Assembly: GCA_051294375.1 (NCBI GenBank)
Contig: CM119267.1
Coordinates: 15,850,105 to 15,914,104 of the forward strand
From: Paraspadella gotoi
Taxonomy: Eukaryota > Animalia > Chaetognatha
Reading direction: 5' to 3'
Length of the DNA stretch: 64,000 bases
Shown: one piece after another, positions 1,663-54,899 of the stretch
How positions within the stretch are numbered: the first letter of the stretch is position 1
How the letters are laid out: every line of letters begins with the position of its first letter
Translations under genes and position numbers: made by a program
The notes under the pieces: model-generated
Told to the model about the DNA's origin: nothing
Database searches by the model: none
Seen by the model: only the letters and a program-made list of their open reading frames with translations

Positions 1663-4600
1663 TCATCTCGGAAACTTGTTTGAGCAAAGCTTTGTCGCGG
1701 CTTCGTTGTCTTCTTTGCGCGTCTCCTCGTCGCGATGCGCTCGAGCCCAATCCGCTAAGATGTCGAGCAGTTCACCTGCAGCCGCCATTCTCTATGATGG
1801 TACGACTGTTAAAGGGAGCGATTTTTTAATTGTAAAAACAATATTAGTTGTTAAGTTTTCAAAGATTAACATTTTTTCCCTTTTTTTTCTTTTCCAGTAA
1901 TAAATGATTCATTTACCTTTTTTCTCGCAAAGGCTCGTCTTCTGACAGATGTTCTGTATCCGCCTATGACATAAAATATGCAATTACAATTTTTTTTTTT
2001 GTTTAAGACAAGCCATCTAATACACCCAGGAGTTTACTTGAAATTCTGAGAGATTCGTTTTTTGTTAAATGGGTCGGCGTCATCGGTTTTAATTCCTGAA
2101 AACCAGAAAAATAATCAGTTCAACATAACACATTACATTTACTTTTTACTTTTCAATCACGTTCATATCATCACTGATATCGGACTGGCTAAATATTAAA
2201 ACATATTCGTTAACCAATCAACATTCAACAAGGTACGTTTTTTTCCTCGTCATTTTCGTTTCCTCAGCGAGAAATTCGTCATTTCCGGGTCACAACTGAG
2301 AACAATCAAGCTTGCGTCCCTCGCTTCCACAAACGATTGCCTGAAATTGAAAGCCAAATTGGTTTCCGCTCCGTCAAGGCCGGTGGCACGAAAAAAAACG
2401 CCGGAAAGCCTTTTGATTCTATTCCGTTTAATGAAACAATGTAACAAATTGGACGCCAAGGTCAAAGAATGACTTTTACGATCTAAGGGCAAATTTTTTT
2501 TTCTCTCAGACTCAGGATTGGTTTTTTCAATGTTTCACCTGACTTTTCTTTGCCGTGGGAGAGCTGCCTGAAAATAGCTTCCGCTTCTACGTCGACATTG
2601 AAAGGATCTTCCAGTCGCTCAAAACGGCCTGGCGCACGGCTTTGTTGCAACCCTCGGCTAAAGTTAATATGAAATTGGTACACACCCACTAATGAAGCTG
2701 AGCTACTCTTGACTCTGACTTGATCACGTGAACGGACTGAAAGACAGGCTATGTGATGATAAGGAACACTGCAGCTATCCTCCATCATCTTTAATTTTAA
2801 TTATGTTACTTTATGATTTATTAGCATTTTATTTTTAATTGGTTGACTGAAAAAAAAAAGCCAATAACGATCGTTCAGAAAAAAAAAAGGTCACAAAATC
2901 TGGAACAGCTGTCCGTCCCTTAGCATTATCGGAGCTTCAGATTCGTCTTGCTTTGAAAATAGGCAGAGCGCACCGTAATCTAATCCCGCTGACTAATTAT
3001 CGTCGAAAATTAAAAGGGGGGAGAATCCCCTCTTTTTACCTGTCGCCAAGAATTTACGGCCATTAATAGTCCATTACCGATTTTCTCCGGTTTCGAGCAA
3101 CAAGTCCAGAATTGCGGAACACGCCTGGGTGAAACATCTTGAGGAGGTCTCTGTTGCTGATGCAGGTTTTTCGAATGGAGGTGAGCCATTTGTTGAGTTC
3201 GTTAAAGTCTTTCGCCTGAAGAAAAGTAGACTATTTTTAAGATGGCATTGAAAACAAGAAGTCAGTGGGTTTTGACAAAGGAAAACTGGCCTTATTTTCC
3301 CAGAACGCCCCATTTTATCTTAAATTTAATTTCTCTAATTCAAGATTAGGGTTAGGGTTAGTGATGAGGGTTAGGGTTTGAGATAGGAAATGGATTATAA
3401 GTTTAAAATATATTTAAATTAAATGTTAAGTTAAAATTAATTTCGTGATAAAGGAACAGAAATGGGGCGCTCTGGAAAAAAAAAAAAAGAGCCCGAAAAC
3501 CTAGCCTCTGATTACAGAATAATCTCAAGTCACACCTGTAAATAGAGCGTTTGGTTAAATCGCTCTTGCTTTCCTTCGACAATTTTTTTCCGGGTCTGAC
3601 ACGCGAGCTTCTTTCTCTATTATCACCTGTAGACGTTTAAAACGAATAGTCAAGCAATCAACTATTCAATTTTAGTAATTACTGTACTTACTCTACTTAT
3701 TGTACAAAGGATATTAAATTCTAACCTGAAAAACATTATATCTTTTCCAAAGGCGTCGATGTCTACAAGTTCGACGCAGCAGATGGCAGAGGTTGGGATC
3801 GAAAAACGAACCTGTCATCAAAATAATATATCAAGCATCAGACTTTTCAGTGGGCAATGGGCAATCGGGCATTATATGCATTATATTAACAACTAATAGG
3901 GCCTAATTAAAAGTAAGAAATTGTAAAGTTCGTGAAATTCAAAAGAAACCACTTCAGTACACACACTGAAAAGCAAATCAGATTAATTCACAAAACAATG
4001 TAGGTCTGATCAATTTAATGATTTAATTAGAACACAGACCGACGGGCGGTAGTAAGACGAAAAAGGAATGAATCGCTATTGGCTATTTTATCGATGCTCT
4101 CTCGACTCGTCTCAGACCTAAACCGACTCGCCTGATCCGCCTGATGTTTCGAGTAGCTCAATAGTTCCGGCGTGAGACGGAAGTACCTCGCGCTGAAGGC
4201 CTTGATCTTGAATTTGTTGGCGACGCGATCGGCGAAGCACTTTTGCAAAAACTCCTTCCTCGACGACGAGATTTCGGTGATAAACAAAGTTGGCGCTCGT
4301 GTCTCCGTTGGCGCTCGAATCCTGAGAGAGGATTAAACCGATTTTTTTTAACCGCCCGTGGGAGAAGATTGTCTGTCTGGCGTCCGCGCGCTTGACAGTT
4401 ATTAATTTAAGGACCGGGTAAGAATGCCTCAATTAGTCGGTCTATTATCCTCGTTAAATTAATGGTTAATAAAGAAATCCGCCTGTCAAATGTATATGAA
4501 TTTGAGGTTTTTAGAAATTTTTTTTTGTCTTTTTCAATTCTCAAAAGGGAACTAAAGGAGTGAGGGGCAAAGCCAAATGAAAAGGTCTTAAAACGCGTCT

Positions 4601-9963: not shown

Positions 9964-10159
9964 TTTCGATGTTAATTGTGGCGGCTGTTTTTCTTTTTCT
10001 CGATTAAAAGATAATTATCCTTTTTGATTGTTACTTTTATTCGCAGGGGAAAAAAAACGCTTCCGAACGAGGTAACCGGAAGTAGTCCGCGATTCTGGTA
10101 TCGAATCGCGCGTCGCGAAAGCGCTATCGGAATTATTTAGTGGAGCGCGCGCGTTCTGT

Positions 10160-10192
<33 letters not shown>

Positions 10193-10673
10193 CACGCTCT
10201 CATTTTTTCAATCATCCGATACTAGAGTACCTGCGTTTACTGACAATTAGTGAGGGCGCGGTCGTCATCACCCAAGGCGACTGAATGGAGAGAAGAGAAT
10301 ACGATTTCCGTTCGCCGAACCTTGATCCGAGGAAAACGGGAAAGGGCGGGGCTGGAACAAGCGCCGGACAAAGAAGGGCATCGACTAACGCCGTGAGCGA
10401 AAGAAAGGGGGAGGTGGTGGTTGGGAAGCGGCTACATGGAGATCAGTTGTTTAGCTTATTCTCTCCACCGAGTATCGAAGGAATGCTGGATAGTGGATAC
10501 TGAACACGATTAAGAATCTTATTAAATTAATTTTATACAAAAAATTTAACTCTAAATTAAAATATGAATTTCGGGCGTTGGATGTTACGAAAACTACGTG
10601 TCGTGACGTAGAGACGCTTTCTTTCTATAAATATCCTACTTAAAAATCCCCATTAGACGATTTCGAGAGGAGG

Positions 10674-13600
10674 ATGACGGAAAAAACGGACGATCATCAC
10701 CGGTCCAACGCGGCAGAGCGATCGCACCCACGAAGCGACGCCATGCGGGAGTTATCGCGTCGGCGAGACGATTCCACGGGCAAGGACCCGATTCCACAGA
10801 TCCAGACCAATTCTTACGCGAGACGATCCGGTTCCGAGGCGAAAGATCATCGGGCGGCGCGGGGCCAAGAAAGACCCAGCGAAGGTTTTTTAAATCGAAC
10901 GACCGACGGTGAGAGTTGGGGCGGGGGGGGGGAGGGGTGGGTATTGATAGCGCAGAATTAGACGCTCTCTCTCTCTCTCCGCGATGTTTTTAGCCCAGAA
11001 CGAGGAAATCTACGACAAGGTGGCCACCCACAACAGAAAAATTAGAGATTCGATGCAACGTTCGACGAAGCGTGGAAGCACCATACGTAACAAGTCTGCC
11101 GAAGAGGAGGAACAGGTGGGTTTTTTTTTTCCTCGAAGTGTAAGGAGAACATCAATGCCACACAGACAGTCAGACACAGAGAGGACAAATCATCGCCTGA
11201 TATTTGCTTGCTTCAGAACTTTGTATCCGACTGAAGTCCGCCATTACACTGTAATTTACAGTTTGGTTAGACTTCTCGTCCCGCTTACTAGTATTATCCA
11301 TTAATTTAATAAATATATTATAATAATATAATATTATTTAATATTATAATAAGTTACTTAAAATTTAAAATAAAATGATTAAATTAATAATAATAGTGAA
11401 GAGACAGTGATAATTTTTATATGTTAGTGACAGAACCGTTCAATATAAGCAGTCCCTGAGCTTCGGATCAGGCTGTAACACTGTGTTACAGGCGGGTTAA
11501 GCGCCCCGTCCCTCTTAACTGCTAGGCGGCCACCGGGCCAGAACCCCGGACCTTTGGGTTGGGAGGCGAATGACTTGCCTCCGGCACCAATGGCCGCTGA
11601 TGAATGGTTGTGATGAGCGGGGTTTTCCATCAGCGACAGTTTATGTCCAACAGTTGGTGGATTTTAGTCCACCATACATCCCCCCTCCCGTAGGGAGAAG
11701 TCAGTTGCGTCTCTTCAGTGAATTGTTGTTGGTGGAAAGTTCGTCACCAAGTTGAGGCATGTCGCCTGATGTGTTGTGGACGGAAAGTGCATCGCCCGGT
11801 TGAGGCATGTCGCCTGAAAGTGTGGTTGTTGCTGTTGTGTTCGGAAGTCGGGCTTACCAATGAAGAGACAGTGATAATTGTTATATGTTAGTGACAGAAC
11901 CGTTCAATATAAGCAGTCCCTGAGCTTCGGATCAGGCTGTAACACTGTGTTACAGGCGGATTAAGCGCCCCGTCCCTCTTAACTGTGAGGCGGCCACCGG
12001 GCTAGAACCCCGGACCTTTGGGTTGGGAGGCGAATGTCTTGCCTCCGGCACCAATGGCCGCTGATGAATGGTTGGTGGTTTTTAGTCCACCATAATAGTA
12101 TATTCAATTTATTTAATAAATAATCTATTGTACCTTCAACCCGCACACAAGATAATAAAATGTTAAGACCATGTTCGTTCTAGACAAAAATGACTGAGGC
12201 AAGCTGCCCTGCCGACCGCTGCACAGTGAAGACCAAGTAGAAAATCTCTACATTGAAGACACTTTCCTGTTGTTTCGGTCGATGAGCGTTCAGGGTCATG
12301 GTTTGATTCTAAATTATTCTTTGTGGCGGTATATTCATACCGCCTCACATCCACTATGGTTAAGCCAAACTCATTGACTCAGAGGGGTTGCGTTCCATCC
12401 ACAGTCATAACGACTTGGCGGTATATTCTCACCGCATCATCTTTATCATAACAACAGCAAGAAGAAAAGATTCCGAATGTAGGAACTTCGGACGTTAAAA
12501 AGGATCGAAAAAGGAGATTTGATCTAATCGAAACGGCCTACGTCAAAGTACCAGAAGAAGCCTTTCCCAATAAGTGAGTAACGCGGTTCACTTTAAAGTT
12601 AAATATATATACAATGTATACATAGTTTTTCATATTTGTCTCTTACATAAATATGCTTCGGCTTTCTGATAAAACAATCCCACAATGTGCTAACTTTATA
12701 AGTAATAAAAGTAAAAAACAAGTAAAACTTATATTTCTATCTTTTCCCCTCTCAGCGATAAATATTGGACGCCGCTGTATCAACTGTTATCACGGGTTTT
12801 GTGGTTCTTTGGCGTTATTCAGATGCTTATCGCCATCGCCATGATTTTGACCGTCATCAACGCGACAAATTACGCCGAGGCGTTATTACGTAAAAACCTA
12901 TTTAATACCTTTTTTAAAAGTTCACCACCTTACTTTTTTTTAATTTTGTCTTCAGTCCCAGCTTTTGTACACGTCATACTGGGGTACTTGGTAATATCGG
13001 CGTCGAACCCCTTTGAACCGAAGACATACGTCATGTACAAGAATCTCGATCCCCGACGGGAGCGCATCATCGATTCCCTCGTCCACGGGCTACTCGTTTT
13101 AGAGACGGGCTTGTTATGTTTGATTGTCGCTCACATGATAATCCGGACCATGGTGGTCAACGATGCTGCCGCTATAGATCCTACTCAGGTCTAGATATTT
13201 GTTAAAACGTTTTACTGTGTAAAAATTTTAATCAGTGTGCACACTGTCCATGTGGGGCTTCAACTTTGTGGAAGGTTTCTGCCATTCTAAACCCTCTACT
13301 TTATTTCCCGAGATAAGGCCTCTCGCCGACTTTTCCTTTCAGATGGTGAACGCATTCATGTTCAACCTTCCCTCTTTGATTCTCGGCTTGTCGATGAGCA
13401 AAGTGAGGGGATTTTACTCTCAAGTTCCTGATCCACACGCCACGGTTTTCTATCCGATCGTCACTCTCTGTGTGGTGGGAATCGGGTTCGGGTTTCTCAT
13501 CAACGAGGTCCTTTGGAGAAAATCGTATGCCGGTGAGGAAGATGTTAGAGCGCGCATGATTATAAGCGGTCTCATCTTTAAAGATTAAAATTATTTGGAA

Positions 13601-16600
13601 TTATTGCTGAAATTTTTTTTATTTAAACTTGAAAAAATTTTTCAAATTTTTTTTTCAGAAAATTCGAAACAAATGATATTTCATAGAGTTTAAATAGCCC
13701 TTAATTTAGACACCAACAAATATTATTTGAAGCATTCATATAAGTATTATAATTTTGTAAATTTTTAATAATTTATAACATTTAAATAAATGCTTTATTG
13801 ATGCTTTATTGATGTATAAATGAAGGGCTTTTTAAACTCTATGAATTTGAAATTTGTTTAAAAAAATTTTTAAAAAGATATTTAGGCTTGAATAAAAAAT
13901 TTAAGCAAATTTCCAAATAATTTTAATCTTTAAAAATGCATAAGGGATAAAGTATTAATAAAAGTTTTATAAGTAAGGTATCTTAATAAAAAATTTTTCT
14001 CGATCTTGAAGATGGGACTGGTTATAATTGATTTTCTTAACTATTTCACATCATCTCGCCCAAAAAACATCAATTTTTTTGTTTTTTAAGAGTTGCTAGC
14101 AATTAATAGTTAAATTTAAAAAAAAATCGACCGAAAAATTAGCACTTGGTGGGGCACAATTTATACTATAGTACTAATCTCGGTGAAAAAAAAACAAGAA
14201 AAAAATTGGAAAAGTCTACCCCTGGTGCTAAAAAATGTATTTTGCTAACATTTTTTTTCTAGGAAAAAAAATATTTCGTATTATGAAAGAAGATTTGAAT
14301 ACCAAGCAAGTAGAAAGGGCATTAATCACTAATGTTAGAGCTATGCAAAATAATTGGCAAAATACTGGATTAGATTGGAAAAAGTCTCCTTTCTATAAAA
14401 TTCAAAGGGCTGTATTATTAGAGAAGCCGGACGATCTCGACGCCGCTTTAAAGGAACTTGACAAGCAAAAGTTGATTTTAAATCTCACTACCGAGCAAGA
14501 GAGGGAACTCGAGGAGTACCACGAAATGGTCAATGTACTCTACTTGGCCAAGGAAATGAATCTTAGAGAAAATCTTGAAAAGGCTATGGAGGAAAACGAT
14601 TTAGATAAGCTTCAGCAGGCATTAATGGAATACCGTAAATGGGCGAGAAATTCCCATTTTAATACAGCCGAAACTCATGAAATTATGAAAGAGGCACGGA
14701 TGCTTGGGCTTAAATTGCGCCACATAGAACAAAATAGGATTTTGGACGATTTAAACGATGCTCTTCAAAAAGATGATCTCAAATCGGCGGAAGAGTTGAT
14801 GGATTTGTTAGAAACAAAACGGATGGCTGACGAGCAACTCAAGATAAAAACGGAAACGATAAGAGATTTGTTTTTCGAAATGGAGAGAAAAAACAAGTCC
14901 CTCATTCGCCAAGAGATACGCGACGGCGCACGTAATAAAAATTTAGGTCAATTAAAATCTAACTTGAAAAAATTCGACCGATGTGGTCTTATAGACGAAT
15001 CGAAAGAGATGAGAGATAGCCGAAAACTGTGTGAGTCGTTAGAGGAAGAAGATAAGATGAGGATAAAGAGAGAGATTAGAAAAGCGCTCGTCGATGAGGA
15101 GAATCCAGAAGAACTCACCAAACTAGTGGCTGAATATAAACACAAAGATTATGCAAATGATCGTCTCATTACCGAAGCAGAGATTGTCATTCATCAATAT
15201 ATAAAAGAAGAAAAAACCGACTTGGAAGACTTGTTGGCCCAAATGAAAATGGCACTTTTAATCGCACCTGATTCTTTATCTTGGCGAGAGCTGGAGGATT
15301 TAATTTCCAAATACAAACAGTCAGGATTGGAAGACAATGAAGGTCTATTATTGGAAGCTGAATTAGTTCTTGCAGAAGTTAAAGAATTGCTAATGGCAAG
15401 AAATAAAGTTCTGGTCAATAATCTTATAGCAACTATGCAAATGTGTCTTGAACAGCCTATTTCCGAGGCTAGCAACAACCTGACAGCGGCAATAGCGGCT
15501 TGTCTTGATGCACAAATTACTTCAAAAGATGGTCCTATTGAAGAAGCTTTTTTGTTGCAATTCCAGCTAGATGCCAAATTAGCAAAAATGGTAGAAAAAG
15601 CTAGAGACCAGCTTGGGGAGGCTCGGACTGTGCTCGAGCTCAGAAATGCCATAATGTTTGTAGAAAACAATAAAATTCCTGAAGAATATATTTCTAATCC
15701 ATCAGTAATCAAAGTAAAAACCACTAAACCATGGCCGTCTACATTGTTGAAAGATGCCAAAGATAGACTTGCTTATATGCTCATTAATGAAGCGGCCACG
15801 TTGTCAGCAACTTTAAATGTTGGACCTGTTCCCAATTATCGTGACCTAAAAGCTATAGAAGAAGCTATAGAAAGATATAAAGCGTTATTACTTCCTGGAG
15901 AGGAATTAGAGGATACAAATTACCTAGAAGCGAAAAAGTTTTATGAGGAGTATAACGCGAAATTAATTATGCGGAATGATGGAATAAAAGCGGATCTTGA
16001 GAAGGCAATTGAGGAAGGAAAACAAGTTGAATTGGCTATTGCAATAAGAGAATTTAAAGATGCTGGAATTACTGATCCTGCTTTATTGACAAAGGGAGAA
16101 AAACACCTGGAAGCTGATGGTACTCTCAAAGAATTGAAACTGAGGTTAAAAGAAGCTACCCAAGACGAAAACCTGTTTCAAATAGAAGCGACACTTTTTC
16201 AATTAAAAGCATTAGGAGTTAATTCAGACAACGACAGGAAATGTTATAAAGCTGAGAAAAAACTAGAAATTCTTAAGGAAGATTACGAAAAGAAAAAAAA
16301 ATTTTTAAACGAACTTGTATTAGATAACGATGTGCACCAAAGGTCAATAATGGAGATGCTTGTGAGAGACCTTTCGGACTTAGGATATACCAAAGATAAT
16401 GATCCAGAAATTACTAAAGCCATCTTGGTTGTCGAAAAATTAAGAGTCATTGAATCAGCTAATAAAGCAGTTGCTGAAGCTCTTATAAGCGCTATGAAAA
16501 AGAAAAATTTGGATTCTTTATTACAGGCTATTCAAGATTTTAAAGCAGCAGGATTGTCATCCCAGGATGGGCCTATTAATGAAGCGGAGGACATGATTCC

Positions 16601-18506
16601 TGTTTTAAGAGGATTACGAGAAAAAGAAAAAAAGGAAAAATGCAAAGCCTTAGAAAGGGCGATTCAGCGAAATAGCATACTTGCACTGGATCTCGCAATA
16701 AATGATTTTTATGAAGCTAATTTTAAGCATACTGATGGGCCAGTATTAGAAGCTACTATGGTACTAGAATTACTGAAAGATTCAAGGCAAAAGCGCCATC
16801 AAGGCTATGACAAAAAACTGCAAGATGCGATGGCCATGGATCGAATTGCACTCGTTGAGACACTAATAAAAGAAATAGAAAATGAAAATCTAACAATAAC
16901 CGAGGTTCCCACACTCACAGAAGCGATGGAATGGATAGACAAAAAAACAGAGGAAATAAAAAAAGAGAAGCTCAATCAACAAGCACAGGATAAAGACTGG
17001 TCAAAGAGTCCTGTCTATCTTGAACAGGAGAAAAAAGAAACAATTAAATGCGAAGAGGACTGCGAAACTTTTCCATCCAATCCTCAATTGCAAGACAAAT
17101 TAGAACGTCATAAAATTCGTTGTTTAGTGTTAGAATCACGTGCTCAACTTATAAACGGAATTTCAGCATCCAAAAATATCTCATTACTGAAGCAGAAGGA
17201 AAATCTAACAAGAGAAGAGCAAAAATGGCTAAAAGAAATAGTGGAATCGGAAGAAACTAACGAATTCCGGAAGCAACTAAATAATGCCACAATGGAGAAA
17301 GATGCTCATTATTTAGATATTGTGGTAAAGAGAATACATAAGGCTGGATTGCAAAATCGATTAGCTACTGAACTTGCAGAAGCAGAAGCTAACATTAAGG
17401 CAAGCATTTCACTTCTCTTTATATATAAAATATTTTTAATTCTATATAATAAAGTTAAAATATTATTATGAATAAAATCTTAAAAGTATATGGACCAGCA
17501 CAAGAAAAGAGAAAGTGAGATAGAAAGAGAAATAGAGATATGGAGAGATTTATCTTGAGATTGAAAGATAAGAAATATCAAAAAAGTGAGAGTTAAAATA
17601 AAAAATAAGAGCCTTAAATTGCCTTAAATTAATTATTTAAGGCAATATATATAGTTTTTAATAATATTATATCAAACAGTTGAAAAAAATATTTTTGTAT
17701 TTAGTATTTATTTCTATATTTGACATTCAGGTTTTTACCAGACTTGCAGCGGTACGAAGACAAGTGAGGGAACTGAAACATTCTCTGGTTGCCGAAATCA
17801 TGTCGTATAGGGAACCACCTGAAGGAGTTTTGAATATCGTGAGGGCCGTTTTCTACATACTTGGGCACGAATTGTCGGAGCTTACTTGGGATGAATGTGT
17901 GAAACTCATGAAGAAAACTGGGAAAGACTCCCTGAAAAAACGAATTGAGGTATTTTTTTACTCGATCATCTATTAATACATGACACACATAAACTTATTT
18001 TATTGAATGAATTGATATTTTGATAATTTTATAATTTAATGCAATTTCATATATAAATAAATCGATTTGATTGAATTTAATTATAATTATTTTATTTAAT
18101 AATAATTATTTAATTTATAATTTTAATTATAAGGACAGAAGAGATTTTTTGGCATTTTTTGAACAGTGGACAGTCATGTTAAAAACTTTATTTAGCTGTG
18201 AAGAAGAGAGTAGGTTTTTCAAGTAATCTTACTATCCACACCGCCCAAGCCAAGGGATTGTTTCCCCGAGAAATATCTTAAACTTTACGTCAACTTCTCA
18301 ACAACTATCAGCTAGAAAATAGATAAAGATAAGTTTTACTTTCATAGAATTTCAATCCTACAAAAGAAAATGTGGATCAAAAACACATATTGAACTGCCG
18401 CACAATGCTGAAAGGATTAAACAATGAAGAGATGATGGGTGTCTCGATGTGCGCCGCTGTGTTTGGACTCTGGGTTACAACAGTGCTCGATACAGTAGAA
18501 CAATAA
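10674..18506 (+). CDS. Uncharacterised ~1506-aa protein: ~5 hydrophobic (TM) segments, long alpha-helical repeat rod, C-terminal dynein-heavy-chain-type microtubule-binding domain
   Basis: Phase-consistent exons 10674-10884, 10994-11115, 12458-12573, 12756-12889, 12956-13188, 13343-13532, 14263-17399 (GC donor), 17731-17949 and 18348-18506 total 4521 nt in one open frame. TM-like segments include VLWFFGVIQMLIAIAMILTVI and VFYPIVTLCVVGIGFGFLI. The rod has repeats such as LEKAIEEGKQVELAIAIREFKDAGI. The C-terminus ELKHSLVAEIMSYREPPEGVLNIVRAVFYILG...TWDECVKLM...SMCAAVFGLWV resembles the dynein MTBD. Confidence 0.7.
11526..11597 (-). ncRNA. tRNA-like (tRNA-Gly(CCC)-related) module in the left LTR; probably not a functional tRNA
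   Basis: 72 nt with acceptor stem GCGGCCA/TGGCCGC, T-arm CCGGG-GTTCTGG-CCCGG and Gly-like TTCGCCTCCCA; the anticodon stem is mispaired. Confidence 0.7.
11990..12061 (-). ncRNA. tRNA-like module in the right LTR
   Basis: Second copy of the 72-nt module, T-loop GTTCTAG. Confidence 0.7.
13573..13938. mobile_element. AT-rich foldback/MITE-like inverted repeat in an intron
   Basis: catctttaaagattaaaattatttggaa...ttcatagagtttaaatagccctt is an imperfect reverse complement of aagggctttttaaactctatgaa...ttccaaataattttaatctttaaaaatg. No clear TSD. Confidence 0.65.
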
Positions 18507-19331
18507 ACAAATGTTATTTACAAGTTATATTTATGTTCCGTTCGTGAATAAAAGATGTTATTTGTACCTGTTCCTAAAAATTAAAATCTTAAATCAAATA
18601 AATGTGCTCAGTATCTTAGCCTCTCTCATTGTAATTGATAATTATCATAAAATTAAGAATATCATTGTACAACAAAGCTTTTCTGGCATTATGAAATTGG
18701 CCGATTCGCACCACAGTCAAAAATGATGAAGAGATGATGGGTGTCTCGATGTGCGCCGCTGTGTTCCCAGTCGGGAAGATGACGATCGTCTTTTGTCTAA
18801 AAATCACTTTCCGTTCTTTTTCTCTCTCCTCAATTTCTCTCTCCTCTTCCGTCGGACATGCGCAGTAGGCCGAGTCAAAACCGCGCCGTCGCTGCCTTAT
18901 TACGAAAGTTACGCAAGTTACTATAATAGTTACTGACATCTCTTTGAAGCACAAAAAAAAATATAGTGATGCTGTTTACTTTTAGTTCTCTGGGTTTCGT
19001 TCGTTTAGGTAAACAGAAGTTTCAAAAATTACGTTTTCTTCCATATTTTCTTCAACTGTACGTAAGACGTATGTCCTCTTGGCAGAGTTGACTTACTGAT
19101 GGTAGTCATTTTCATCAGACGATGTTAAAATTGTCAAAACAAGCTGGTTCATAAGGTTATTTTCAAATTGTGATTTCTTAGTCTTAGATGTATATCGGCG
19201 CTGAATCATCTGCAGTGACACTTATTGTTTTGTATTACTTTTAAGTAGTTCCATGAGAACAACTCAATTTTGCTCCCGTTTGAAATCAACGATGGAATCG
19301 GACGTCCGTTCGATTCACGCACCACAATAAA

Positions 19332-22300
19332 ATGAGAAACTCTTACGTCCGGTCCGATAAGGACCCCGACCCCAACGCCGCGGAAGACGGCTCGGAAAAC
19401 GATTCAGAGCAAGAAGAAAATCTCGCTGAAAATAACAATAAAAACCTAATAGAAATAAAAAACCGACGGGGCATCACTGGCCGGCCACCTTTAAAACGAG
19501 AAACCGGAAGTCAAGGTAAAAGTGATGTAATACAATTAAAATATCGCTTGAGGGCGAAAATTAAAACAGCTTTGTTTCCTTTGCAGCCTCAGCAAGTGAC
19601 GCCGATGTCAAGACAGAGCCGCCGACGTCCGATGATCTTACATCTTCGCGCGATGTCAAACGTCGCTTCGTCTCGTCGAACACGGCGGACTCCGCAGTCC
19701 GTAGCAAAAGAAGACGAACGCAATTGACCGAAGATGGTTCGTAAGAATGAACCGTAAAATTCCGAGGCCAATATCTCTGTTTCTTACCTTGTTCTATGTC
19801 GTTTAGATTCGCATGACGTCAAGTGCTCAACGTCCGCGAAGGGACCCGACTTGTTGCGTGGGGAGACGGCGTTCGAGAGTGAGGGAACTCCGTCAGACGC
19901 TGCAGGGACTTCGGGACTCAAAACTTCGTTTCTAGCTGAAATTCCGTCAAAGCTTAACGGCTTTCGAAGCATGAAACGCCATCGCCCTGCCGAGCTTTTT
20001 CGCAAGGACTTGATTTCAGGTTAACAATGAAAGCATTTTATAACGTTTTTTAAAATTTTTATGTTGAATAGCCCCTGTTTATATTTCTTAAACCCAAGCC
20101 AATCGCAAAAGAGATTTCCAAATTAATTTGGCGCAATTATAAGTTAAAGCATCTGAGTTTTTTTCTATGTTGAAGTCATTCCCGAATCGTCTCTTAAAAG
20201 TTAAATACTTTTTTTTTAAACTACACTACAGCTATGAAATTAGCGGACTCAGAGCCTCTGGACGAAGCCGAATACCTCACGATCAGCGACCCCTGGCGTC
20301 AGGAATGGGAGCGCGGTGTCCAGGTTCCCGTAAATCCCGACGTCGTCCCCGAGGCGAGTGTACGTCAAATATACGACGACGGCTTTAAAGGAAGCTTCAA
20401 ACTCAATCCTCGAAAGTTTCTCCACGCCACTCAAGACGCGAACTTTCAATCCGGAATTCACGAGTTGACCATGGTAGACCAGATGGCGGAGCAGGTCTGC
20501 CGCTACGACCTGGACGACCTCGACATCGCCTGGCTCGGACGCACCAACGAGGAGTTGACGCTTTGCGGGGAGTCAGAGATTCACGAATACGCCATGGAAA
20601 AGTTTGTGGAGGAGGTGGAGAATAAGTGTTACGAACAACTGCAGGGAAAGATTCGCGCCGTCGAAGGTATGAAGTCACAAGATTTAAATGTGAATAATTA
20701 AGTACGTATAATCGTATATACAGTGTAAAGCCGAGGGTTTATATCAAGCAGCTTTATTAATGTTAGTGTTGACCTCTGAATTTTGAAATACAGCGGCGGG
20801 GATCGAATTCGACGACGAAATCGCCTGTAACGTTTGCTTCGCCCTGGAAGGCGAGGACGGCAACGAGATGATATTCTGCGACGCATGTGACGTCTGCGTC
20901 CATCAGGCTTGCTACGGCGTTCACTCAATTCCTGAAGGCGACTGGCTTTGTCGAACCTGCGCTACAGGTTCGATTACTCTTTTTTTTTGGGGGGGGAGGG
21001 GTGTCACTGAATGTTTTCAACATATTTAAATTCTTTATTTTTTTTTCCATCTCATTTTTTTACTTTGCAGAAAAATGAAAGTTTTCAATTTATCAAATTT
21101 AATTTTAAAATTAATCTATTATTAATATGAATATTATTAATATTAATTTATTATTAATTTATCCAGTGGATTGTCATTTAAAAGCTGAATAGTAGTTAAT
21201 ATATGCGAAAGAGCTAAAAACGACAATCACCATTTAAAGCCCATATCTAGGTATATTATCATTATTATTATTATTATTAGGCGTGCAACCTCAATGCGTT
21301 CTTTGCCCGAAAAAGGGCGGTGCTATGAAAAGTACCCGTTCCGGATCTTCGTGGGCTCACGTTGCCTGCGCCCTTTGGGTCCCCGAAGTATCCATCGGCG
21401 ATCCAGAAAAAATGGAACCAATCACCAACATCTCAAACATTCCGTCGCAAAGATGGTCGCTTCTTTGCAGCGTTTGCAAGTAATTTAATTTGCTCTAACT
21501 TTTTGATGACGTTCTAATGCTAAATGCTAATATTTTTATTTCAGGGAAAAATCTGGGGCACCAATTCAGTGTTCGGTGAAAACTTGCAAAACGGCCTTTC
21601 ACGTCACTTGCGCTTTTAATCAAGGATTTGACATGAAAACTGTCGTCGACGAATCCGACGACGCGGTCAACTTACAGTAAGGGTGTAACTCGATATAGTT
21701 TGTTAAATTTATTAAGTATAAGTAATATAAAACTCATTACCTTACTGTATTTTATCCAGGGCATTTTGTCGAAAACATTCCTCTGAAAGCGTAAAACTGA
21801 AGACGCGCCACCGTCGGGCTGGAAGGGCGTCCTCGGGGTCGACTTCCGCTTCGTCATCAACAGTAAAGAAGACGAGAGAGGAAGGAGCCGAGTCGGAGGA
21901 GACAGAGGACGACGACTTCGAGGACGAAATGACGGAGGAAGAAAAGGATCGACTCCGGAAGGAAAAGTGAGTCTGAGTTTCTTATATATTCCGAGGTCTC
22001 GCTTATTGGTTACGAAATCATTCTTTCAACTCGTCTATCAGGATTCGACAGTGCGAAGAAGATTTCTATATTCTAGTCAAGCCTGAGGATATTTTGCCAA
22101 GTGTTCAGGATTACTTAGCTCAGTGGCAATTATCGCTCAACCTTTTTCAAGCGTCACTCATCTTTAATTTTTGGAAGTTGAAAAGAAGGGTAAGTAAGCA
22201 CTAAGCATTTAGTCGTATGGTCAAATCATTTGTGAAATTTAAAATAGAACATAAATAAACGTAAAATGCGTGGTTCCACTTGTTAAAATTTTTCAGCACG

Positions 22301-25123
22301 TTTCTTATGCAAAACCAGTTTCTCCCATGAGTTAATTTACCTTTTCCAGAGCAACGATAACAAACCTCTGTTGACGCCGAAACTAGACGAAGCAGACGCG
22401 TTAGCAAAGCAACAAGAGGACGCATTGGTCGCAAGGTAAGCCCTAAAATTTGCTTATTTAAAAAGCTACGTTATTAATAGGTTTTATACTGTCGCAGTAA
22501 CAATTCGGCAAAGCTCGATTTACAAAATTAAGAATCAATTTATTAGTTTTGAAATATTTGACATGACAAAAAATGTACAATTTAATGACAATAAATAACA
22601 CACAACGAACGATTTTGAAAATATTTACATTATATACTTTACATATTGTATTGAAATATCCACATAACTCGTGAGTCATGGTAAAAAAAATAGCGATAGC
22701 ATCGGAGATTGTTCACATTCTTATCACTCACTTATCTACACGCACATCGGTCCACGATCATGTCAGGATGATGTCTGGTGACTACCATTCCATTTTCCAT
22801 GTACAGCATTGAGAGGGGGCTGAGATGGGCCGGAACGCAGCAGAGATGACGCCGGTCGGTCGTGTTTTCTCCCAGCGCGTGCCGCATTAAAGATTTGAGC
22901 ATACCATGATTTGTAGGATGCAGCGCATGAGTGAGGGGATTGGGACACGTCCCGTTGCACTGAAAAGCTTCATACTTTTTTGGGTAGATGATCCAAGTGT
23001 CCCAGCCCAAGACGTTGAAATCGACGACATACTTTTCTAACTGGCAAAGTCCTTCTCTAGTGTCTTTTTGGTCTGAGACATCGAAGAAGGTTTTATTTAT
23101 TGGCTGAGGAAGGTAATCTAAAGCCTCCGCCGATCTTTCTCTGGCCGGCTGCTTGTTTCGTCGTCTCTTACCCCCGCGCTTCTTCCCGCGCTTATTTTTG
23201 TGTAGACGCCTACGATGCTTTCTACGCGACAGCTTTTTTGGGCTAATTACTGAAAGCAAATGGGCGCGAAGTTTGTCATGTTTTCTAATGGAGCGACGAT
23301 GCCTTTCGACGTGGTTTTCGTTGACTTCGGCGGCTTCTTTTTTGCTCTGAGACTCTTGCTGCTGTAGCTCTTCAAGTTTTTGATCGTCTTTGGAGAAAAT
23401 TACAAGAGAAGCATCATCGGTGGAGACGCTGATTTGGTTGCTCACCACGTCGCCACCGGGAAAAAAATAAGTCACTGTGATTTCCATTACGTTGTTTGGG
23501 TCGCCAAAGGCTCGTTTCCATCTCGGGATCTCCCTGGTTATGTCAAGCCAGAGTTCGTTGTTGTGGGAGTCCTCCATCTTGAAGACTCGCGTTTCGCGAA
23601 AAGTTTCGACGACCGGTTTGGCCGATCGGCGACTACGCTCGTGGCAGTTTTTTACGTCGTCGGCATTCAGGAAGTTGAGGGCGTAGAAGACTTTAGGAAC
23701 GTTTTCCGCTTTGACAGAAGAGTGAACGGTGAGGGCGAGAAGAGCAAGCAGGTTGCTTGCCGGCTTGTCGCTCTTCGACTTTAACGCCCTCAGGTCGAAG
23801 TTTATTCTTCCTCCTTTGCGGAAGTGAGTTGTCAAGGACGATGACTCTGACTCTGTTGTATTCTCTGGCGCTAATTTGATAGATCCTGGCAGCGCACGAA
23901 CTGTGTTGCATGATCGAATTTTTCGCCTGTGAATGAAGAAAGTATTATTCCATACTAAGGTAATCACTAGTTTTGTTATTTGTTCTAGTTTACTGGTAGG
24001 TACTGATATTACTGATAAGCAGGGTTTTCCGTCTCTCGCTCACTTTCTGAGAGTGTCAATATCGTAGATAGTAATCGGGTAAAACGTAAATCGTAAAACG
24101 AACAGATTGTGATAATAATAACGAACTGTATTGTTTATATTTTTAAACACTTTTACAAAAGGTAAATAAGATTGACGAATTACAACGAGTTTATGTCCAA
24201 CATTACTAATAGTGATATTACTAATTTTGTATTTACAGAAACGATAGCCCCTCATTTAGTTTTTTTCCGCTCTTTTATTACATATATTTATCTTAATTCA
24301 TTCCAACACTTATACCTTCATTAATTCCCTCCAACTCTCAATTTACATAAAATTATTATTATTCTAGATATTTGGTATGGCTTTAAAATGTTTTGATTTG
24401 GGAAGTTCTTTCTTACCGGTTTTCGTGGTTTAGCTTCTTGTGCAGTTCCTTTGTCGCGGTCTCCATCGAGTTTCCTTTTTGCAGCTTCTCGAAAACCTTG
24501 AGCACGTACTTGCTTCCGGGATCTAGAGCCATGAGACGCGAGTCTTTTTCGTAACTTTCCTCGGAAGTCTGCTCTCCCTCCGCAACGCTTTCAAGGATTT
24601 TGTTGCGAGAGTCGTTGAACACCGTTGTATTCGACGTCGCGACATCGGAAGCGTTGACGCCTCTAACGTCCGAATCGTTGACGCCTCTAACGTCCGAATC
24701 GTTGACGCCTCTAACGTCCGAATCGTTGACGCCTCTAACGTCCGAATCGTTGACGCTCGTTTGGATCGGAGGTTCAGGAGGTTGGGAAACTTTCATCATA
24801 ATATCTTTCACGATGCTGACAAGAAATTTATGTTCGTTGTAGATATCTCCTTTTTCTTTTCTCCCAATTGGGAAAAACGTCGCAAAATGAACCGAGGAAA
24901 GAAATAAGATTATTACGAAAAGTTGGGAATTCATTTCGTATTTGTTACAAGTTACGCTTTTCGAGATTTTCGATTTTGTCAGCATTTAAAAGAGAAAAAA
25001 TGTTTTGTGTTTCGATTTGAGGATTTTATACATCGCATTTTCCGGAAGTGTTCGTCGAGACGATGTCGCTCTTCCTCTTCTTCCTCCTCTTCCTTCTTTC
25101 CGCCGGTGGAAAAAAACCATGGG

Positions 25124-25173
<50 letters not shown>

Positions 25174-28100
25174 TATATATTTTCTTCGCGACTCGAATCA
25201 CCTTGTTTTACCGCCTCTTCCTCATCCCATTGTTCATCATTTCTGCCGATCATGGGAATCGCCTCTCGTTGACCATGGAAGTTCTCACGATACTATTGTG
25301 CCGATTTTCTGGTCATGTTTGTGAAATAAACCTGCTCTTTATTCACAGAATGGTGAAGTTGAAGATTTTATTAAATTCTTTCTCTATTGTTAATCTCAAG
25401 AATATCTGTTTGATAATTTACGAATTAAAAAAAACAGAGCTACAGTTAAAAAAAAAAATATATTTTACAGACAAATCTACTTTTGACAACCGAACATGTT
25501 GACCTTAGAAATCGGGTCGTAAAATATCGTTCCCGTTCTGTGGTTCCCATCAGTCCAGTGTTTCGCTCGAGAATCCCGAAATTTCTCGTACCTACAGCGA
25601 CGGAAAATCTTTCCACAGCAGTCACTATGGTTGTTTCTTCGCCGCCGTTTTTATGGGCGTCCTCTTTCTTTTTGCTCGTAAATAAAATGTTTTCGTTAAG
25701 GTGCTAATATTCGCACACTTGTGATAGCTGTTCCCAAAAATAATTGACTTAATAATACATTTTTTTCGGACTTGAATCGACAATTTAAAAAGTGTCAGTT
25801 TTGCTATGGAGTTTGATCGTAGTGAGAGTTCCAAACATATTTAACAAGTTTAACATTTTTTATAGGAAACAAATTTATTATTAATTTTTTTAAAAATTGA
25901 TGATTTTTAATAGGTTTTGAAAAAACCAAATGGTTTTATTTTTTAAACCTGTAATGTATCTTTGGCTTGGCGGAAAGAGCAGCATCCTGAAAATTGACTC
26001 GGAACCTTATTATCGGTCTCTTCTTCTTAATCCCATTAGCCAAGTAGGATCGAGTGCCTCCGTACCGGAAAGGATTTTCTCGATTTTTGCACTAACACCG
26101 CCTTATATCCCATCAAATATAAAATAGACCTTTTATCTTGGAGAAACCGGGGTCATGTGATGAATAAACAGCAATTTTGGGCGAAACCAAAAAAATCTGG
26201 TTTCCAAATTTCCGGTTCGAGGCAATAAGCGATAAAAAATATTTTGGAAACACCTGATTTTCGTAATTTTGTAATTATCATAAAAAATTGGGGTAATGAA
26301 AAATAGAATTTTTCATATAATTACATATTCGTATTTTATTTAAAAGAATTCCTAAATGTAATTTTATATATTTGTGATGAGTTTATGTCCAACATTTACA
26401 GAATGAAGATGTTCATGCATCTTCGTCAAGACTTGGAGCGGGTTCGTAATTTGTGCTATATGGTGAACAAACGTGAGAAGCTCCGGCGGCAGTGGCTTCA
26501 ATTGAGAAGAGACGTCTTTTTTTCACAATTAAAAGTTCTGGAGGATAAACGACTCAGTTTATCAAAGGTATTTTAAGTTTTGAATGTAAGTTTGCAAAAA
26601 AAATTAACGTTAAGAAGCAAAAAACTTGCTTTTTGTATTATTTTGGGGAAAATATGTAGTTTGGTTTTATTTTACTATATTCTCAATGATCTCATTGATC
26701 AATCCTAAATTGTTTATCATGGTTTGTTGAACTTGTCGCGGAAGGGAGACAATCTAGGTAGAAGTTTGTGACTTTTTTTGTGCGGTTTTTCTATAATTCA
26801 CTTTGTCGGTCCCACCCCAAAAGCTTGTCGGTATGATACTTAGATCATGTCAGAACATCGAATTATGATAAATTATGCAAAAAAAAAAAGATGTCCGTCT
26901 TCCCTTAGATTTGAACGCCAATTACTCATGAGTATATGGGGCGATTGAAATTTTGTATGTGGGTAGGAAAGTGTGTGATTGAGCTAGAAATCAAGTTTAG
27001 ATGGAATCGCCCGAGTGGAAATGAGTTTAAATGGAAAAAACAAAAAACCTGTTTCACTAATTGATAATGCTTATTTTTTTTATATCAAATGTAAATGCAA
27101 GATGTATTAATTAATCAAATTAATTATTTGTCAATTAATTAATCAATAATTAATTTACCAGTCAATTAATTAATTATTCACTCAATTTATTTATATATTA
27201 ATTAATTATTCAATTAATTCATTTATCAATTAATTAATTAATTATTCAATCAATCTAGTAAGTCAATCATTTAATCGTTATCGGCATTGTCGTCATCGCC
27301 ATCGTCGTCGTTGCTTATGTCGTAGTCAGTGACGAAAAAACCTAAAAACAAACATGTCGGATCAAATTAATAATTAATTAATGCTATAATTAATTAACTT
27401 GAAATAATAAAATAATTGATTACCTCTAATGATCGTGGGCAGTTCCGGAATTGTTTGCTAAAACTTGTTTTTACTCTTTTTGGCTTGAAAGGCTACATGA
27501 ATGAGAAACATTATGTGGAGAAAAACCGCTTAACCCATTTAAATAAATTTATTTGGAAACTATTTTATTAGCGCGAACGAGACGCGGTTATCGAGTCGCA
27601 CCGGATGTCGCCGCTTGGCCTTAGCGCCACGATGTCGTCGTCACTATTTGTGCGCCTGAAACGCTTCGGACGACTCACTCCTGTCCCCGTCACCGACTCA
27701 TGCGGGGCCGCTATCTATGATTATCCTTACTTCTGGGATAAGATCAAGGTCGGCGGCGATTCCGGTCAACACGAGGACAGGTTTGATTCGAGTTTCTTTC
27801 TTTTTTTTTTGTAGTGGAAGGTATATATATTGTATAATCTCCTTTTCAGACGATCCCCTCAAAAGTTCTCGCCATTCACTGGAACATCCGATGCGGGTTC
27901 CTTTGATTCCGAGATCGGCCAATCGCCTTGCACTTCACGTGACTTCGGCCAATCAGCGTCCAGGTTTTGGATCGATTCGATACGATCTTTGAATACCATT
28001 TATCATCGGTTTTTATCCCATCTTTTTCTCACCATTACAGAAAACTGACTCAAGATATTGATGTTTTCGAAATCGACGAGGTCTTGTCCCCGGGTCCTAG

Positions 28101-40308: not shown

Positions 40309-40367
40309 ATTGTTTTATTCATGATTCGCTTGTTTGTTTTTTTTTTTCAGTTAACGTAGTTATTGTA

Positions 40368-54800: not shown

Positions 54801-54899
54801 GAATCCAACTCGGTCGTGCGCGTGTCGGCGGACTGGATTTGGCACAGCGTGCGCAAAGGAGTGTTAATAAACGAAGCCGCTTACCGCGTTGTACGGTGA
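51899..54899 (+). CDS. LIG3: DNA ligase III (PARP-type Zn finger, ligase core, BRCT)
   Basis: EYAARGTAACKKCKEKI...WHHVKC zinc finger; SEIKYDGERVQVHK; EGLVLKD...YEPGKRHWLKVKKDYL; WEITGAEF...SIRFPRVTRVR; C-terminal BRCT LRRYFVAFDG...WIW. Exons 51899-54079 and 54264-54899. Confidence 0.97.

What the first reader, a model, noticed from the sequence alone, without database searches (positions are those of the whole stretch)
10674..18506. Membrane-anchored helical rod tipped by a motor-less dynein-type microtubule-binding domain: a candidate membrane-microtubule tether
Seen in sequence: several separate ORFs join through canonical, phase-compatible splice sites (one GC-AG) into one ~1506-aa frame. 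The frame has a hydrophilic N-terminus, about five hydrophobic segments, ~1000 aa of helical repeats (L..A....D...L..AI..F..AG), and a C-terminal ~125-aa domain. Established knowledge: that domain's pattern (L....I.EI.S...PP.GV..V..AV...LG; W....K; S..A.....WV) is the dynein heavy-chain stalk-tip MTBD, normally attached to an AAA+ ring. No AAA+ motifs are present here. Inference: the protein could be a static or elastic link between a membrane and microtubules (ciliary, sperm or mechanosensory), analogous to the ankyrin tether of NOMPC. Related stand-alone MTBD-like domains may exist in other uncharacterised invertebrate proteins.
Basis: partly seen in the sequence, partly recalled or inferred. 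Interest (0 to 1): 0.8.

Follow-up and report, generated by a model that had tools for sequence, protein, structure and literature searches.

The report
Four-pass membrane rod with dynein tip
A spliced, transcribed animal gene encodes a 1,514-residue protein in which a predicted four-pass membrane anchor and about 16 helical repeats end in a motor-less copy of the domain that dynein motors use to grip microtubules, so it likely ties a membrane to microtubules, although this copy has lost two of dynein's positively charged contact residues and binding is untested.

Summary
The gene is real. One 4,922-nt transcript contig carries all eight introns, including 13533-14262 and the GC-AG intron 17400-17730. 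Intron 1 starts at 10909, so the protein is 1,514 aa, not 1,506. The contig skips the last 13 codons at a 40-nt repeat, most likely an assembly chimera. The C-terminal domain is dynein-MTBD-like: family profile E 7e-15 to dyneins; the model of a close relative gives Z 15.7 to 3ERR. There is no Walker motif and no CC1/CC2 stalk. Four helices score as membrane-spanning, not five, predicting a cytosolic rod. The rod has about 16 repeats of ~57 aa with no solved match. The repeat+MTBD module is widespread: 80 hits, those with names from sponge to tunicate, about 10 membrane-anchored. This scan has found motor-less MTBDs on other DNA several times. Motor-less copies also sit in solved EFCAB5 and RSP2 (radial spokes) and possibly Toxoplasma ICMAP2 (on microtubules). 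This copy lacks both basic tubulin-facing positions, at least one of which 70 of 72 relatives keep. A membrane-microtubule tether is the best reading (0.45); nothing supports mechanosensing.

The parts
10626..10633 (+). TATA-box-like element about 30-40 nt upstream of the transcript contig's first base (10664)
   Evidence: only match in 10000-11000; contig start; function inferred
10674..10908 (+). Exon 1 coding part, first ATG after an in-frame stop; hydrophilic N-terminus
   Evidence: joint 10907-10993 (donor 10909, not 10885)
10994..11115 (+). Exon 2, hydrophilic
12458..12573 (+). Exon 3, charged segment before the first membrane helix
12756..12889 (+). Exon 4, predicted TM1 (aa 172-192, nt 12796-12858)
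12956..13188 (+). Exon 5, predicted TM2 (aa 200-218), basic inner loop, TM3 (aa 247-265)
13343..13532 (+). Exon 6, marginal hydrophobic segment (aa 281-299) and last predicted TM (aa 315-333), followed by a basic stretch
14263..17399 (+). Exon 7 (3,137 nt): all-helical rod, about 16 repeats of ~57 aa (aa ~380-1394) with an irregular ~95-aa stretch at aa 1245-1338; ends at a GC donor
17731..17949 (+). Exon 8: end of the CC1-like helix and MTBD helices H1-H4 (E1411, P1418, L1433-G1434, W1442, basic patch 1450-1460)
18348..18506 (+). Exon 9 coding part: H5, H6 and a short CC2-like helix with W1504; stop at 18504-18506. Bases 18464-18506 not covered by the transcript contig
18502..18602 (+). Four polyadenylation-signal-like hexamers (18502, 18547, 18580, 18597) directly after the stop
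   Evidence: use inferred
18726..18765 (+). Exact second copy of 40 nt of exon 9 (18424-18463), 302 nt downstream; the transcript contig jumps between the two copies

Best explanation
The gene encodes a predicted four-pass membrane protein whose long cytosolic helical rod ends in a motor-less dynein-type microtubule-binding fold, and it likely acts as a passive spacer-tether holding a membrane some tens of nanometres from a microtubule. Shown: the spliced transcript, the repeats, the homology of the tip to the dynein MTBD, and the absence of Walker motifs. Predicted: N-in/C-in topology. Each repeat is one long helix (30-34 aa) and one short helix (13-16 aa), the long helix shared between neighbouring three-helix units. 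In the relative's model the last long helix runs on as the CC1-equivalent into H1, and the CC2-equivalent is a stub ending 10 residues after W1504, so dynein's ATP-driven registry switch cannot operate. Inferred: a rise of roughly 2.5 nm per repeat gives about 40 nm if the rod is straight. The grip is probably weak and nucleotide-independent, resting on the H1 glutamate and the basic H3-H4 patch and needing many copies in the membrane. A ciliary or cortical site is a guess.
For: One contig joins all nine exons. Fold of close relative P0002 (52% identical to exon 8; pLDDT 87.7): Z 15.7, rmsd 3.1 over 138 residues to mouse dynein MTBD 3ERR; Z 13.2 to 6L4P; all 4 Foldseek matches at E<=0.001 are dynein entries. 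The family profile hits 57 PDB sequences at E<=0.01, all dyneins or dynein MTBD constructs by name or length, best 7e-15. Topology: approximate insertion energies -2.6, +0.3, -1.0, +3.3, -1.3; K/R counts 0 in loop 1, 5 in loop 2, 1 in the first part of loop 3, 6 after the last helix. In 9 of 9 membrane-bearing relatives examined there are more K/R after the last helix than before it. E1411 is kept in 77 of 80 family domains. By the end-points of the 3J6P alignment it maps to Dictyostelium E3390, suggested to contact alpha-tubulin (PMC4987762, passage). A possible motor-less precedent on a lattice: chain 9YA2_L, Z 8.7, by size and numbering likely ICMAP2, which binds an intraconoidal microtubule (PMC12819142, passages) and whose loss disperses microtubule-associated vesicles (PMC10774369, passages).
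Against: No binding data for any member. This copy has M1413 where 65 of 80 relatives have K/R (yeast dynein, dynein-2 and DNAH6 show R there). It has no K/R in 1490-1496, and only P0002 and P0001, its nearest relatives, share both losses among 72 scored (P0001's H6 columns look like intron read-through). H6 arginines are named as tubulin contacts (PMC4987762). Net charge of the domain is +3 against a family median of +5. EFCAB5 and RSP2 carry the fold inside radial spokes. The 9YA2_L match has 6% identity and a Z in the range common for helical bundles. The only transcript contig lacks codons 1502-1514. The topology rests on a simple recalled scale, and TM2 is itself marginal. The full domain was folded only for the relative P0002, not for the window's own spliced sequence.
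Confidence: 0.45

Rival explanations
1. Membrane-anchored spacer whose MTBD-like tip has been repurposed as a protein-binding module and no longer binds tubulin, as may be the case in the radial-spoke proteins EFCAB5 and RSP2.
For: Lineage-specific loss of the H1 and H6 basic residues, with the hydrophobic core kept. Chain 9FQR_Xl (1,509 aa, GAF domain, best PDB hit of a protein named EFCAB5) and Chlamydomonas RSP2 (7JRJ_I) hold the fold. EFCAB5 is described in the RS3 stalk, contacting RGS22, LRRD1 and STKLD1 (PMC11779644, passages). A quick tree put the window's domain and P0002 beside the GAF/DPY30 group (96 SH-aLRT; unfinished search, long branches).
Against: E1411 and the basic patch at 1450-1460 are kept, and R1416 may compensate (shared with P0001 and P0002). 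I saw no text stating which EFCAB5 or RSP2 domain makes which contact. The tree is weakly resolved.
Confidence: 0.3
2. Five membrane helices: the rod and tip face the lumen or the outside, so the MTBD fold is only a structural cap of a surface stalk.
For: A fifth hydrophobic segment exists (aa 281-299, Kyte-Doolittle about 1.1) and is followed by 2 K/R. Marginal helices can insert in multi-pass proteins (established knowledge).
Against: It scores +3.3 on the approximate scale; 6 K/R follow the last helix; 9 of 9 membrane-bearing relatives examined show the cytosolic-tail charge bias. About 70 of the 80 hits have no hydrophobic segment at the threshold used.
Confidence: 0.1
3. The expressed form lacks the end of the domain: a 302-nt deletion allele, or a recurrent skip between the 40-nt repeats, replaces the W1504 helix with 33 other residues (1,534 aa), so the tip is degenerate.
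For: The only transcript contig has this join, and no contig covers 18464-18725 at 95% likeness. The basic contacts are lost.
Against: The repeat is longer than the 31-letter words of the contig assembly. Polyadenylation-like signals follow the genomic stop at once, so the true 3' end would be a short branch that graph cleaning can remove (my knowledge of de Bruijn assemblers). W is kept at 1504 in 61 of 72 relatives (F in 9), and P0002 keeps the same ending. The 4.5-kb frame is intact.
Confidence: 0.1

Closest known systems
Dynein heavy-chain microtubule-binding domain (core of Pfam PF12777; PDB 3ERR, 5AYH, 6KJO, 6L4P, 8I3J)
   Same: Six-helix fold with a CC1-like entry helix and a CC2-like exit helix (Z 13-16 for the relative's model); conserved H1 Glu, Pro-Pro, Leu-Gly, both Trp; no H2-H3 flap-sized insertion in the alignments.
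   Different: No AAA+ ring, no antiparallel stalk (CC2 is a stub), so no nucleotide control. About 4 extra residues form a basic GK.S.K.R patch between H3 and H4. H1 and H6 basic residues are lost in this copy. It is fused to repeats and a membrane domain.
EFCAB5 (9FQR chain Xl, identity inferred) and Chlamydomonas RSP2 (7JRJ chain I)
   Same: Non-motor axonemal proteins carrying the same fold near the C-terminus (Z 9.9 and 7.1; weak sequence support through P0019).
   Different: Soluble radial-spoke subunits with DPY30, GAF or EF-hand domains; no membrane anchor or 57-aa repeats seen. The passages I read do not name the MTBD-like domain.
Toxoplasma ICMAP2 (9YA2 chain L, identity inferred from 162 modelled residues numbered 1207-1455)
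   Same: Large non-motor protein whose small globular domain sits on a microtubule and which organises vesicles and rhoptries; Z 8.7, rmsd 3.8 over 124 residues.
   Different: 6% identity; binds as a dimer between protofilaments; the papers report no recognisable domain and no dynein likeness; the match may be a common helical arrangement.
Unnamed invertebrate repeat+MTBD module: hillarin/KY-like proteins (11 of 80 hits with PF23265), EF-hand proteins, Styela VWA+TM protein XP_077966891.1, Branchiostoma CD20-like protein XP_066272931.1, Adineta CAF0857834.1
   Same: Same ~57-aa repeat directly before the same C-terminal domain; about 10 of 80 have predicted membrane helices.
   Different: Most have 1-3 repeats by the profile (P0043 about 6 by eye) against about 16 here. 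The membrane domain is not detectably homologous to the Branchiostoma one (hhalign probability 1%). No full-length orthologue was found.
Known membrane-microtubule tethers: NOMPC/TRPN, CLIMP-63, p180, kinectin (recalled, from no call)
   Same: Membrane anchor plus a long helical cytosolic part proposed to reach microtubules.
   Different: None is known to me to use a dynein-type MTBD. NOMPC is a six-pass channel with ankyrin repeats; neither feature is found here.

Membership tests
Dynein heavy chain | AAA+ ring with Walker A/B motifs | tested here: not met
   No Walker A or B pattern in the 1,514 aa; no AAA Pfam hit in the exon frames scanned; the transcript spans the whole frame
Dynein heavy chain | Long antiparallel CC1/CC2 stalk on both sides of the MTBD | tested here: not met
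   The protein ends 10 residues after W1504; upstream lies a hairpin repeat
Dynein-type MTBD (domain) | Six-helix H1-H6 fold and sequence homology | tested here: met
   Profile E 7e-15 to 2.6e-12; Z 15.7 for the model of relative P0002; window domain to P0002 E 5e-38
Dynein-type MTBD (domain) | Pfam PF12777 gathering score | tested here: inconclusive
   Exons 8 and 9 scanned separately give no hit; 20 of 80 relatives hit at E<=0.01, 6 above the cut-off
Dynein-type MTBD (domain) | Tubulin-facing charged residues of H1 and H6 | tested here: inconclusive
   E1411 and K1405 present; M at 1413 and no K/R at 1490-1496
Dynein-type MTBD (domain) | Binds microtubules at the intradimer cleft | not testable with these tools
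   Needs co-sedimentation or cryo-EM
NOMPC/TRPN channel | Ankyrin repeats and a six-helix channel domain | tested here: not met
   No ankyrin family for the rod at E<=1; repeat unit ~57 aa; four to five hydrophobic segments
CD20/MS4A-like tetraspan (PF04103) | Profile match over four membrane helices | tested here: inconclusive
   Only single exons or a read-through frame could be scanned, no hit; hhalign to P0076/P0084 probability 1%, E 0.052
Hillarin/KY-like | Transglutaminase-like core and KY Ig-like domains | tested here: not met
   No PF01841 or PF23265 hit in the frames scanned; the modelled rod segment is all helical
EFCAB5/RSP2 radial-spoke proteins | DPY30, GAF or EF-hand domains | tested here: not met
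   No such Pfam hit in the frames scanned (the 38-aa exon 3 was not scanned)

The most novel reading that the evidence does not exclude
A tension-gated membrane-microtubule tether. The rod's last helix is dynein's CC1, and pulling CC1 away from the tip is what puts the dynein MTBD into its high-affinity state (PMC6629372, passages). Load on the membrane would therefore tighten the grip without ATP. This protein would be one member of a portable repeat+MTBD module that ciliated invertebrates have fused many times to membrane anchors, transglutaminase-like and EF-hand proteins, and the same motor-free fold may be the unrecognised lattice-binding domain of Toxoplasma ICMAP2.
Probability: 0.15. 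Interest if true: 0.85.

Novelty: new variant of a known kind. Interest (0 to 1): 0.55.

Why it matters
The dynein MTBD is treated as a part of the motor only. A membrane protein that carries it on a long repeat rod would be a ready candidate for the membrane-to-microtubule links of cilia and cell cortex in invertebrates. It is also a natural test of how the domain behaves with no stalk registry switch. The comparison points to overlooked copies of the fold in solved structures (EFCAB5, RSP2, possibly ICMAP2), which can be checked at once in the deposited models. If the tip does not bind tubulin, the result still shows reuse of the fold as an interaction module.

Tried and rejected
No whole genome is held, so paralogues were sought only in the window: no second copy of the domain or the repeat. 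Word-indexed homologue searches found nothing at threshold: exon 8 against longer proteins, rod residues 600-1045, P0002 residues 1-135 against longer proteins. A locus scan of metagenome contigs with P0002 confirmed none of 77 pattern matches. These blanks are weak evidence. No run is on record as RNA; X1 is taken as RNA because its contig is spliced at canonical introns. X2 and X3 hold only short intron-like pieces. Pfam names neither rod nor membrane exons. The Atlas gives no hit at 0.9 or more for the membrane region. The rod model has no Foldseek match at E<=0.001 and a best Z of 8.1 over 72 residues, i.e. local three-helix likeness only; this does not show a new fold. Alignment A2 forced relatives' MTBDs onto the rod and was discarded. 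The first repeat profile was contaminated with MTBD tails and rebuilt. The tree search did not finish; the quick tree needs at least 3 changes for the membrane label but is poorly resolved, and 6 short rows of 81 were dropped. No RFX X-box (recalled motif) within one mismatch in 10000-11000. No Rfam match in 10000-19500. TTLL11's 'MTBD-like' motif refers to TTLL6/7, not dynein (PMC12366701, passages). Ten literature searches (listings, with passages or one section read for eight papers) showed no description of a motor-less dynein MTBD on a repeat rod or membrane protein. The two 2020-21 radial-spoke structure papers were not held and may describe RSP2's domain as dynein-like, which I recall but could not check. 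Supplements were not read. No complex prediction was run, as no tubulin sequence was at hand.
Full report
Gene structure. Nine exons from ATG 10674 to TAA 18506 join without an internal stop. One public run, X1, holds 0.55 of the sampled words of 10500-18700, equal to the exonic share of 0.55. Laid on the window, one 4,922-nt contig runs from 10664 to 19175 with joints at all eight introns: 85, 1342, 182, 66, 154, 730, 331 and 398 nt. The first joint selects 10909. The 331-nt joint, shifted by two of its three ambiguous letters, is GC..AG at 17400-17730. Membrane exons, rod and tip therefore lie on one transcript. This is one run of one study, RNA by inference, and may come from the same material as the window. 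A TGF-beta ligand gene nearby marks the organism as an animal.

The 3' end. The contig has a ninth joint, 18423 to 18726, between two exact 40-nt copies. None of the 41 registers has GT-AG, GC-AG or AT-AC ends. Read literally it would replace the last 13 residues with 33 others. I read it as a chimera of this mRNA with a transcript starting near the second copy. The repeat is longer than the 31-letter words; polyadenylation-like hexamers lie at 18502-18597, so the true end would be a short branch that assemblers trim (my knowledge); and the genomic ending is the conserved one (W in 61 of 72 relatives, F in 9; the same ending in P0002). A deletion allele is not excluded, and codons 1502-1514 remain without RNA support.

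The tip. Exon 8 alone hits yeast dynein MTBD constructs first in the PDB (E 0.007) and Atlas clusters in which 12-18% of members carry PF12777 (score 0.95, low recognition value). Against 1.84 billion representatives it finds 80 proteins at E<=0.001, of 55-1,470 aa. A profile of 58 sequences (57 of these plus exon 8) hits 57 PDB sequences, all dyneins or their MTBD constructs, best E 7e-15. The spliced domain could not be folded directly, so the closest full relative, P0002, served as proxy (E 5e-38 to the window's domain, E 8.5e-33 to the end of the rod). Its model has pLDDT 87.7 and matches 3ERR at Z 15.7, 5AYH 15.6, 8I3J 15.1, 6L4P 13.2 and 2RR7 11.5 among 48,161 chains. There is no Walker pattern, and the chain ends 10 residues after W1504, so there is no stalk. 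It is a dynein-type MTBD by homology and fold, and not a dynein.

Would it bind microtubules? Interactions of H1, H3 and H6 hold the high-affinity state in dynein (PMC6629372, passages and section 6). Named contacts include mouse K3298 and R3382 and Dictyostelium E3390, R3469 and K3472 (PMC4987762, passages). E1411 is kept in 77 of 80 family domains and maps to E3390 if the 3J6P alignment (model 136-246 to chain 3382-3488) is ungapped at its start. A basic patch at 1450-1460 is conserved (K/R in 74-92% at five positions). Against this, position 1413 is M (K/R in 65 of 80) and the H6 stretch 1490-1496 has no K/R (at least one in 55 of 72). Of 72 domains scored, only P0002 and P0001 lack both, and these are the window's nearest relatives; P0001's H6 columns are probably intron read-through. 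All three have R at 1416 instead. Binding is plausible but less safe for this sub-lineage than for the family.

The membrane part. Kyte-Doolittle peaks lie at 174-192, 200-218, 247-265 and 315-333, with a weak shoulder near 281-299. On an approximate biological scale (values recalled) these score -2.6, +0.3, -1.0, -1.3 and +3.3; the best window of the rod scores +5.0. K/R counts fit N-in, short outer loop, basic inner loop, 49-residue outer loop and C-in. Nine membrane-bearing relatives were examined; all nine have more K/R after the last helix than before it. The domain has no named family. A likeness to the CD20-like domain of Branchiostoma P0076 is not significant.

The rod. A repeat profile from 66 repeats in 48 other proteins scores 12 rod stretches at 8 bits or more; 10 shuffles give 0 each and the reversed rod 1. 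Sixteen starts, most from the profile and two placed by eye, have a median spacing of 56.5 aa, with an irregular stretch at 1245-1338. A model of aa 905-1245 with a 17-row alignment has pLDDT 87.9 but pTM 0.55, and alternates long helices of 30-34 residues with short ones of 13-16 (one long helix is broken in two). Solved structures match only single three-helix units. An extended staggered rod of about 40 nm is my inference from helix lengths; coordinates were not returned.

The family. Among the 80 hits, 11 carry KY-like Ig domains, others EF-hand, GAF, LRR, VWA, DPY30 or CD20-like domains, and 10 have a hydrophobic segment of KD>=1.8, one of them marginal. Thirty were looked up; named clusters come from a sponge, a rotifer, an orthonectid, an annelid, molluscs, a sea cucumber, lancelets, tunicates and the protist Acrasis. 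None of the 30 was named as an arthropod, nematode or vertebrate; the sample is too small to give a range. In an unfinished tree the membrane-bearing members do not group together, a weak sign of repeated fusion. No full-length orthologue was found.

Known motor-less copies. The fold search also returned three non-dynein chains. 9FQR_Xl (Z 9.9) is 1,509 aa with a GAF-like region and is the best PDB hit of a protein named EFCAB5; the tool's label for the chain is AKAP14, and labels in this entry appear shifted, so the identity is inferred. 7JRJ_I (Z 7.1) is Chlamydomonas RSP2. 9YA2_L (Z 8.7, 6% identity) belongs to a Toxoplasma intraconoidal microtubule structure; its 162 residues numbered to 1455 fit ICMAP2, whose resolved globular domain is about 10% of 1,678 aa and binds the lattice as a dimer (PMC12819142, passages). 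EFCAB5 is described as part of the RS3 stalk and RS2-RS3 bridge (PMC11779644, passages). The precedents thus point both ways. None of the passages read calls these domains dynein-like; two radial-spoke papers were not available.

Earlier scan notes. The scan reported a single-pass membrane version (e1-10581402), a 6,000-aa rod version (e1-7318412) and several protist motor-less MTBDs on other DNA. My reading was recorded before I saw them; they are not independent support.

Verdict. A passive membrane-microtubule tether is the most likely function (0.45), a repurposed interaction module the main rival (0.3). The architecture is not described in the papers my ten searches reached, but it is one variant of a widespread module built on a known domain. 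Interest 0.55.

Noticed in passing
window 11397-11610 and 11861-12074: Two 97%-identical copies of a 214-nt element in intron 2, with summed contig depth of 11,000-28,000 in run X1: a high-copy, probably transcribed SINE-like repeat. No Rfam match.
   Followed up: partly
window 18726-18765: Exact 40-nt copy of coding exon 9 sequence, 302 nt downstream and about 470 nt before the next transcript contig (19239); origin unexplained (templated insertion, or an assembly join of two haplotypes).
   Followed up: partly
window 12890-12955: Intron 4 is 66 nt, in frame and stop-free; retention would add 22 fairly hydrophobic residues between TM1 and TM2. The contig splices it out.
   Followed up: partly
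PDB 9YA2 chain L, 9FQR chain Xl, 7JRJ chain I: Non-dynein chains with a dynein-MTBD-like fold (likely ICMAP2, likely EFCAB5, RSP2), not named as such in the passages read.
   Followed up: partly
P0054, P0055, P0050: Unnamed proteins with several tandem MTBD-like copies and no motor (4 and 5 PF12777 stretches in P0054 and P0055).
   Followed up: no
window 19239 onward; 20198-20701: The next gene downstream has a weak EPL1 match (E 0.0036), JADE/BRPF-like by recall; a separate 3,818-nt contig starts at 19239.
   Followed up: no
window 22732-24985 (-), 40296-42485, 43189-45282, 51896-54899: A TGF-beta family ligand, an ankyrin-containing CLPB-like gene, an OCRL-like phosphatase and a DNA ligase III-like gene with very long exons: a compact, intron-poor animal locus.
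   Followed up: no
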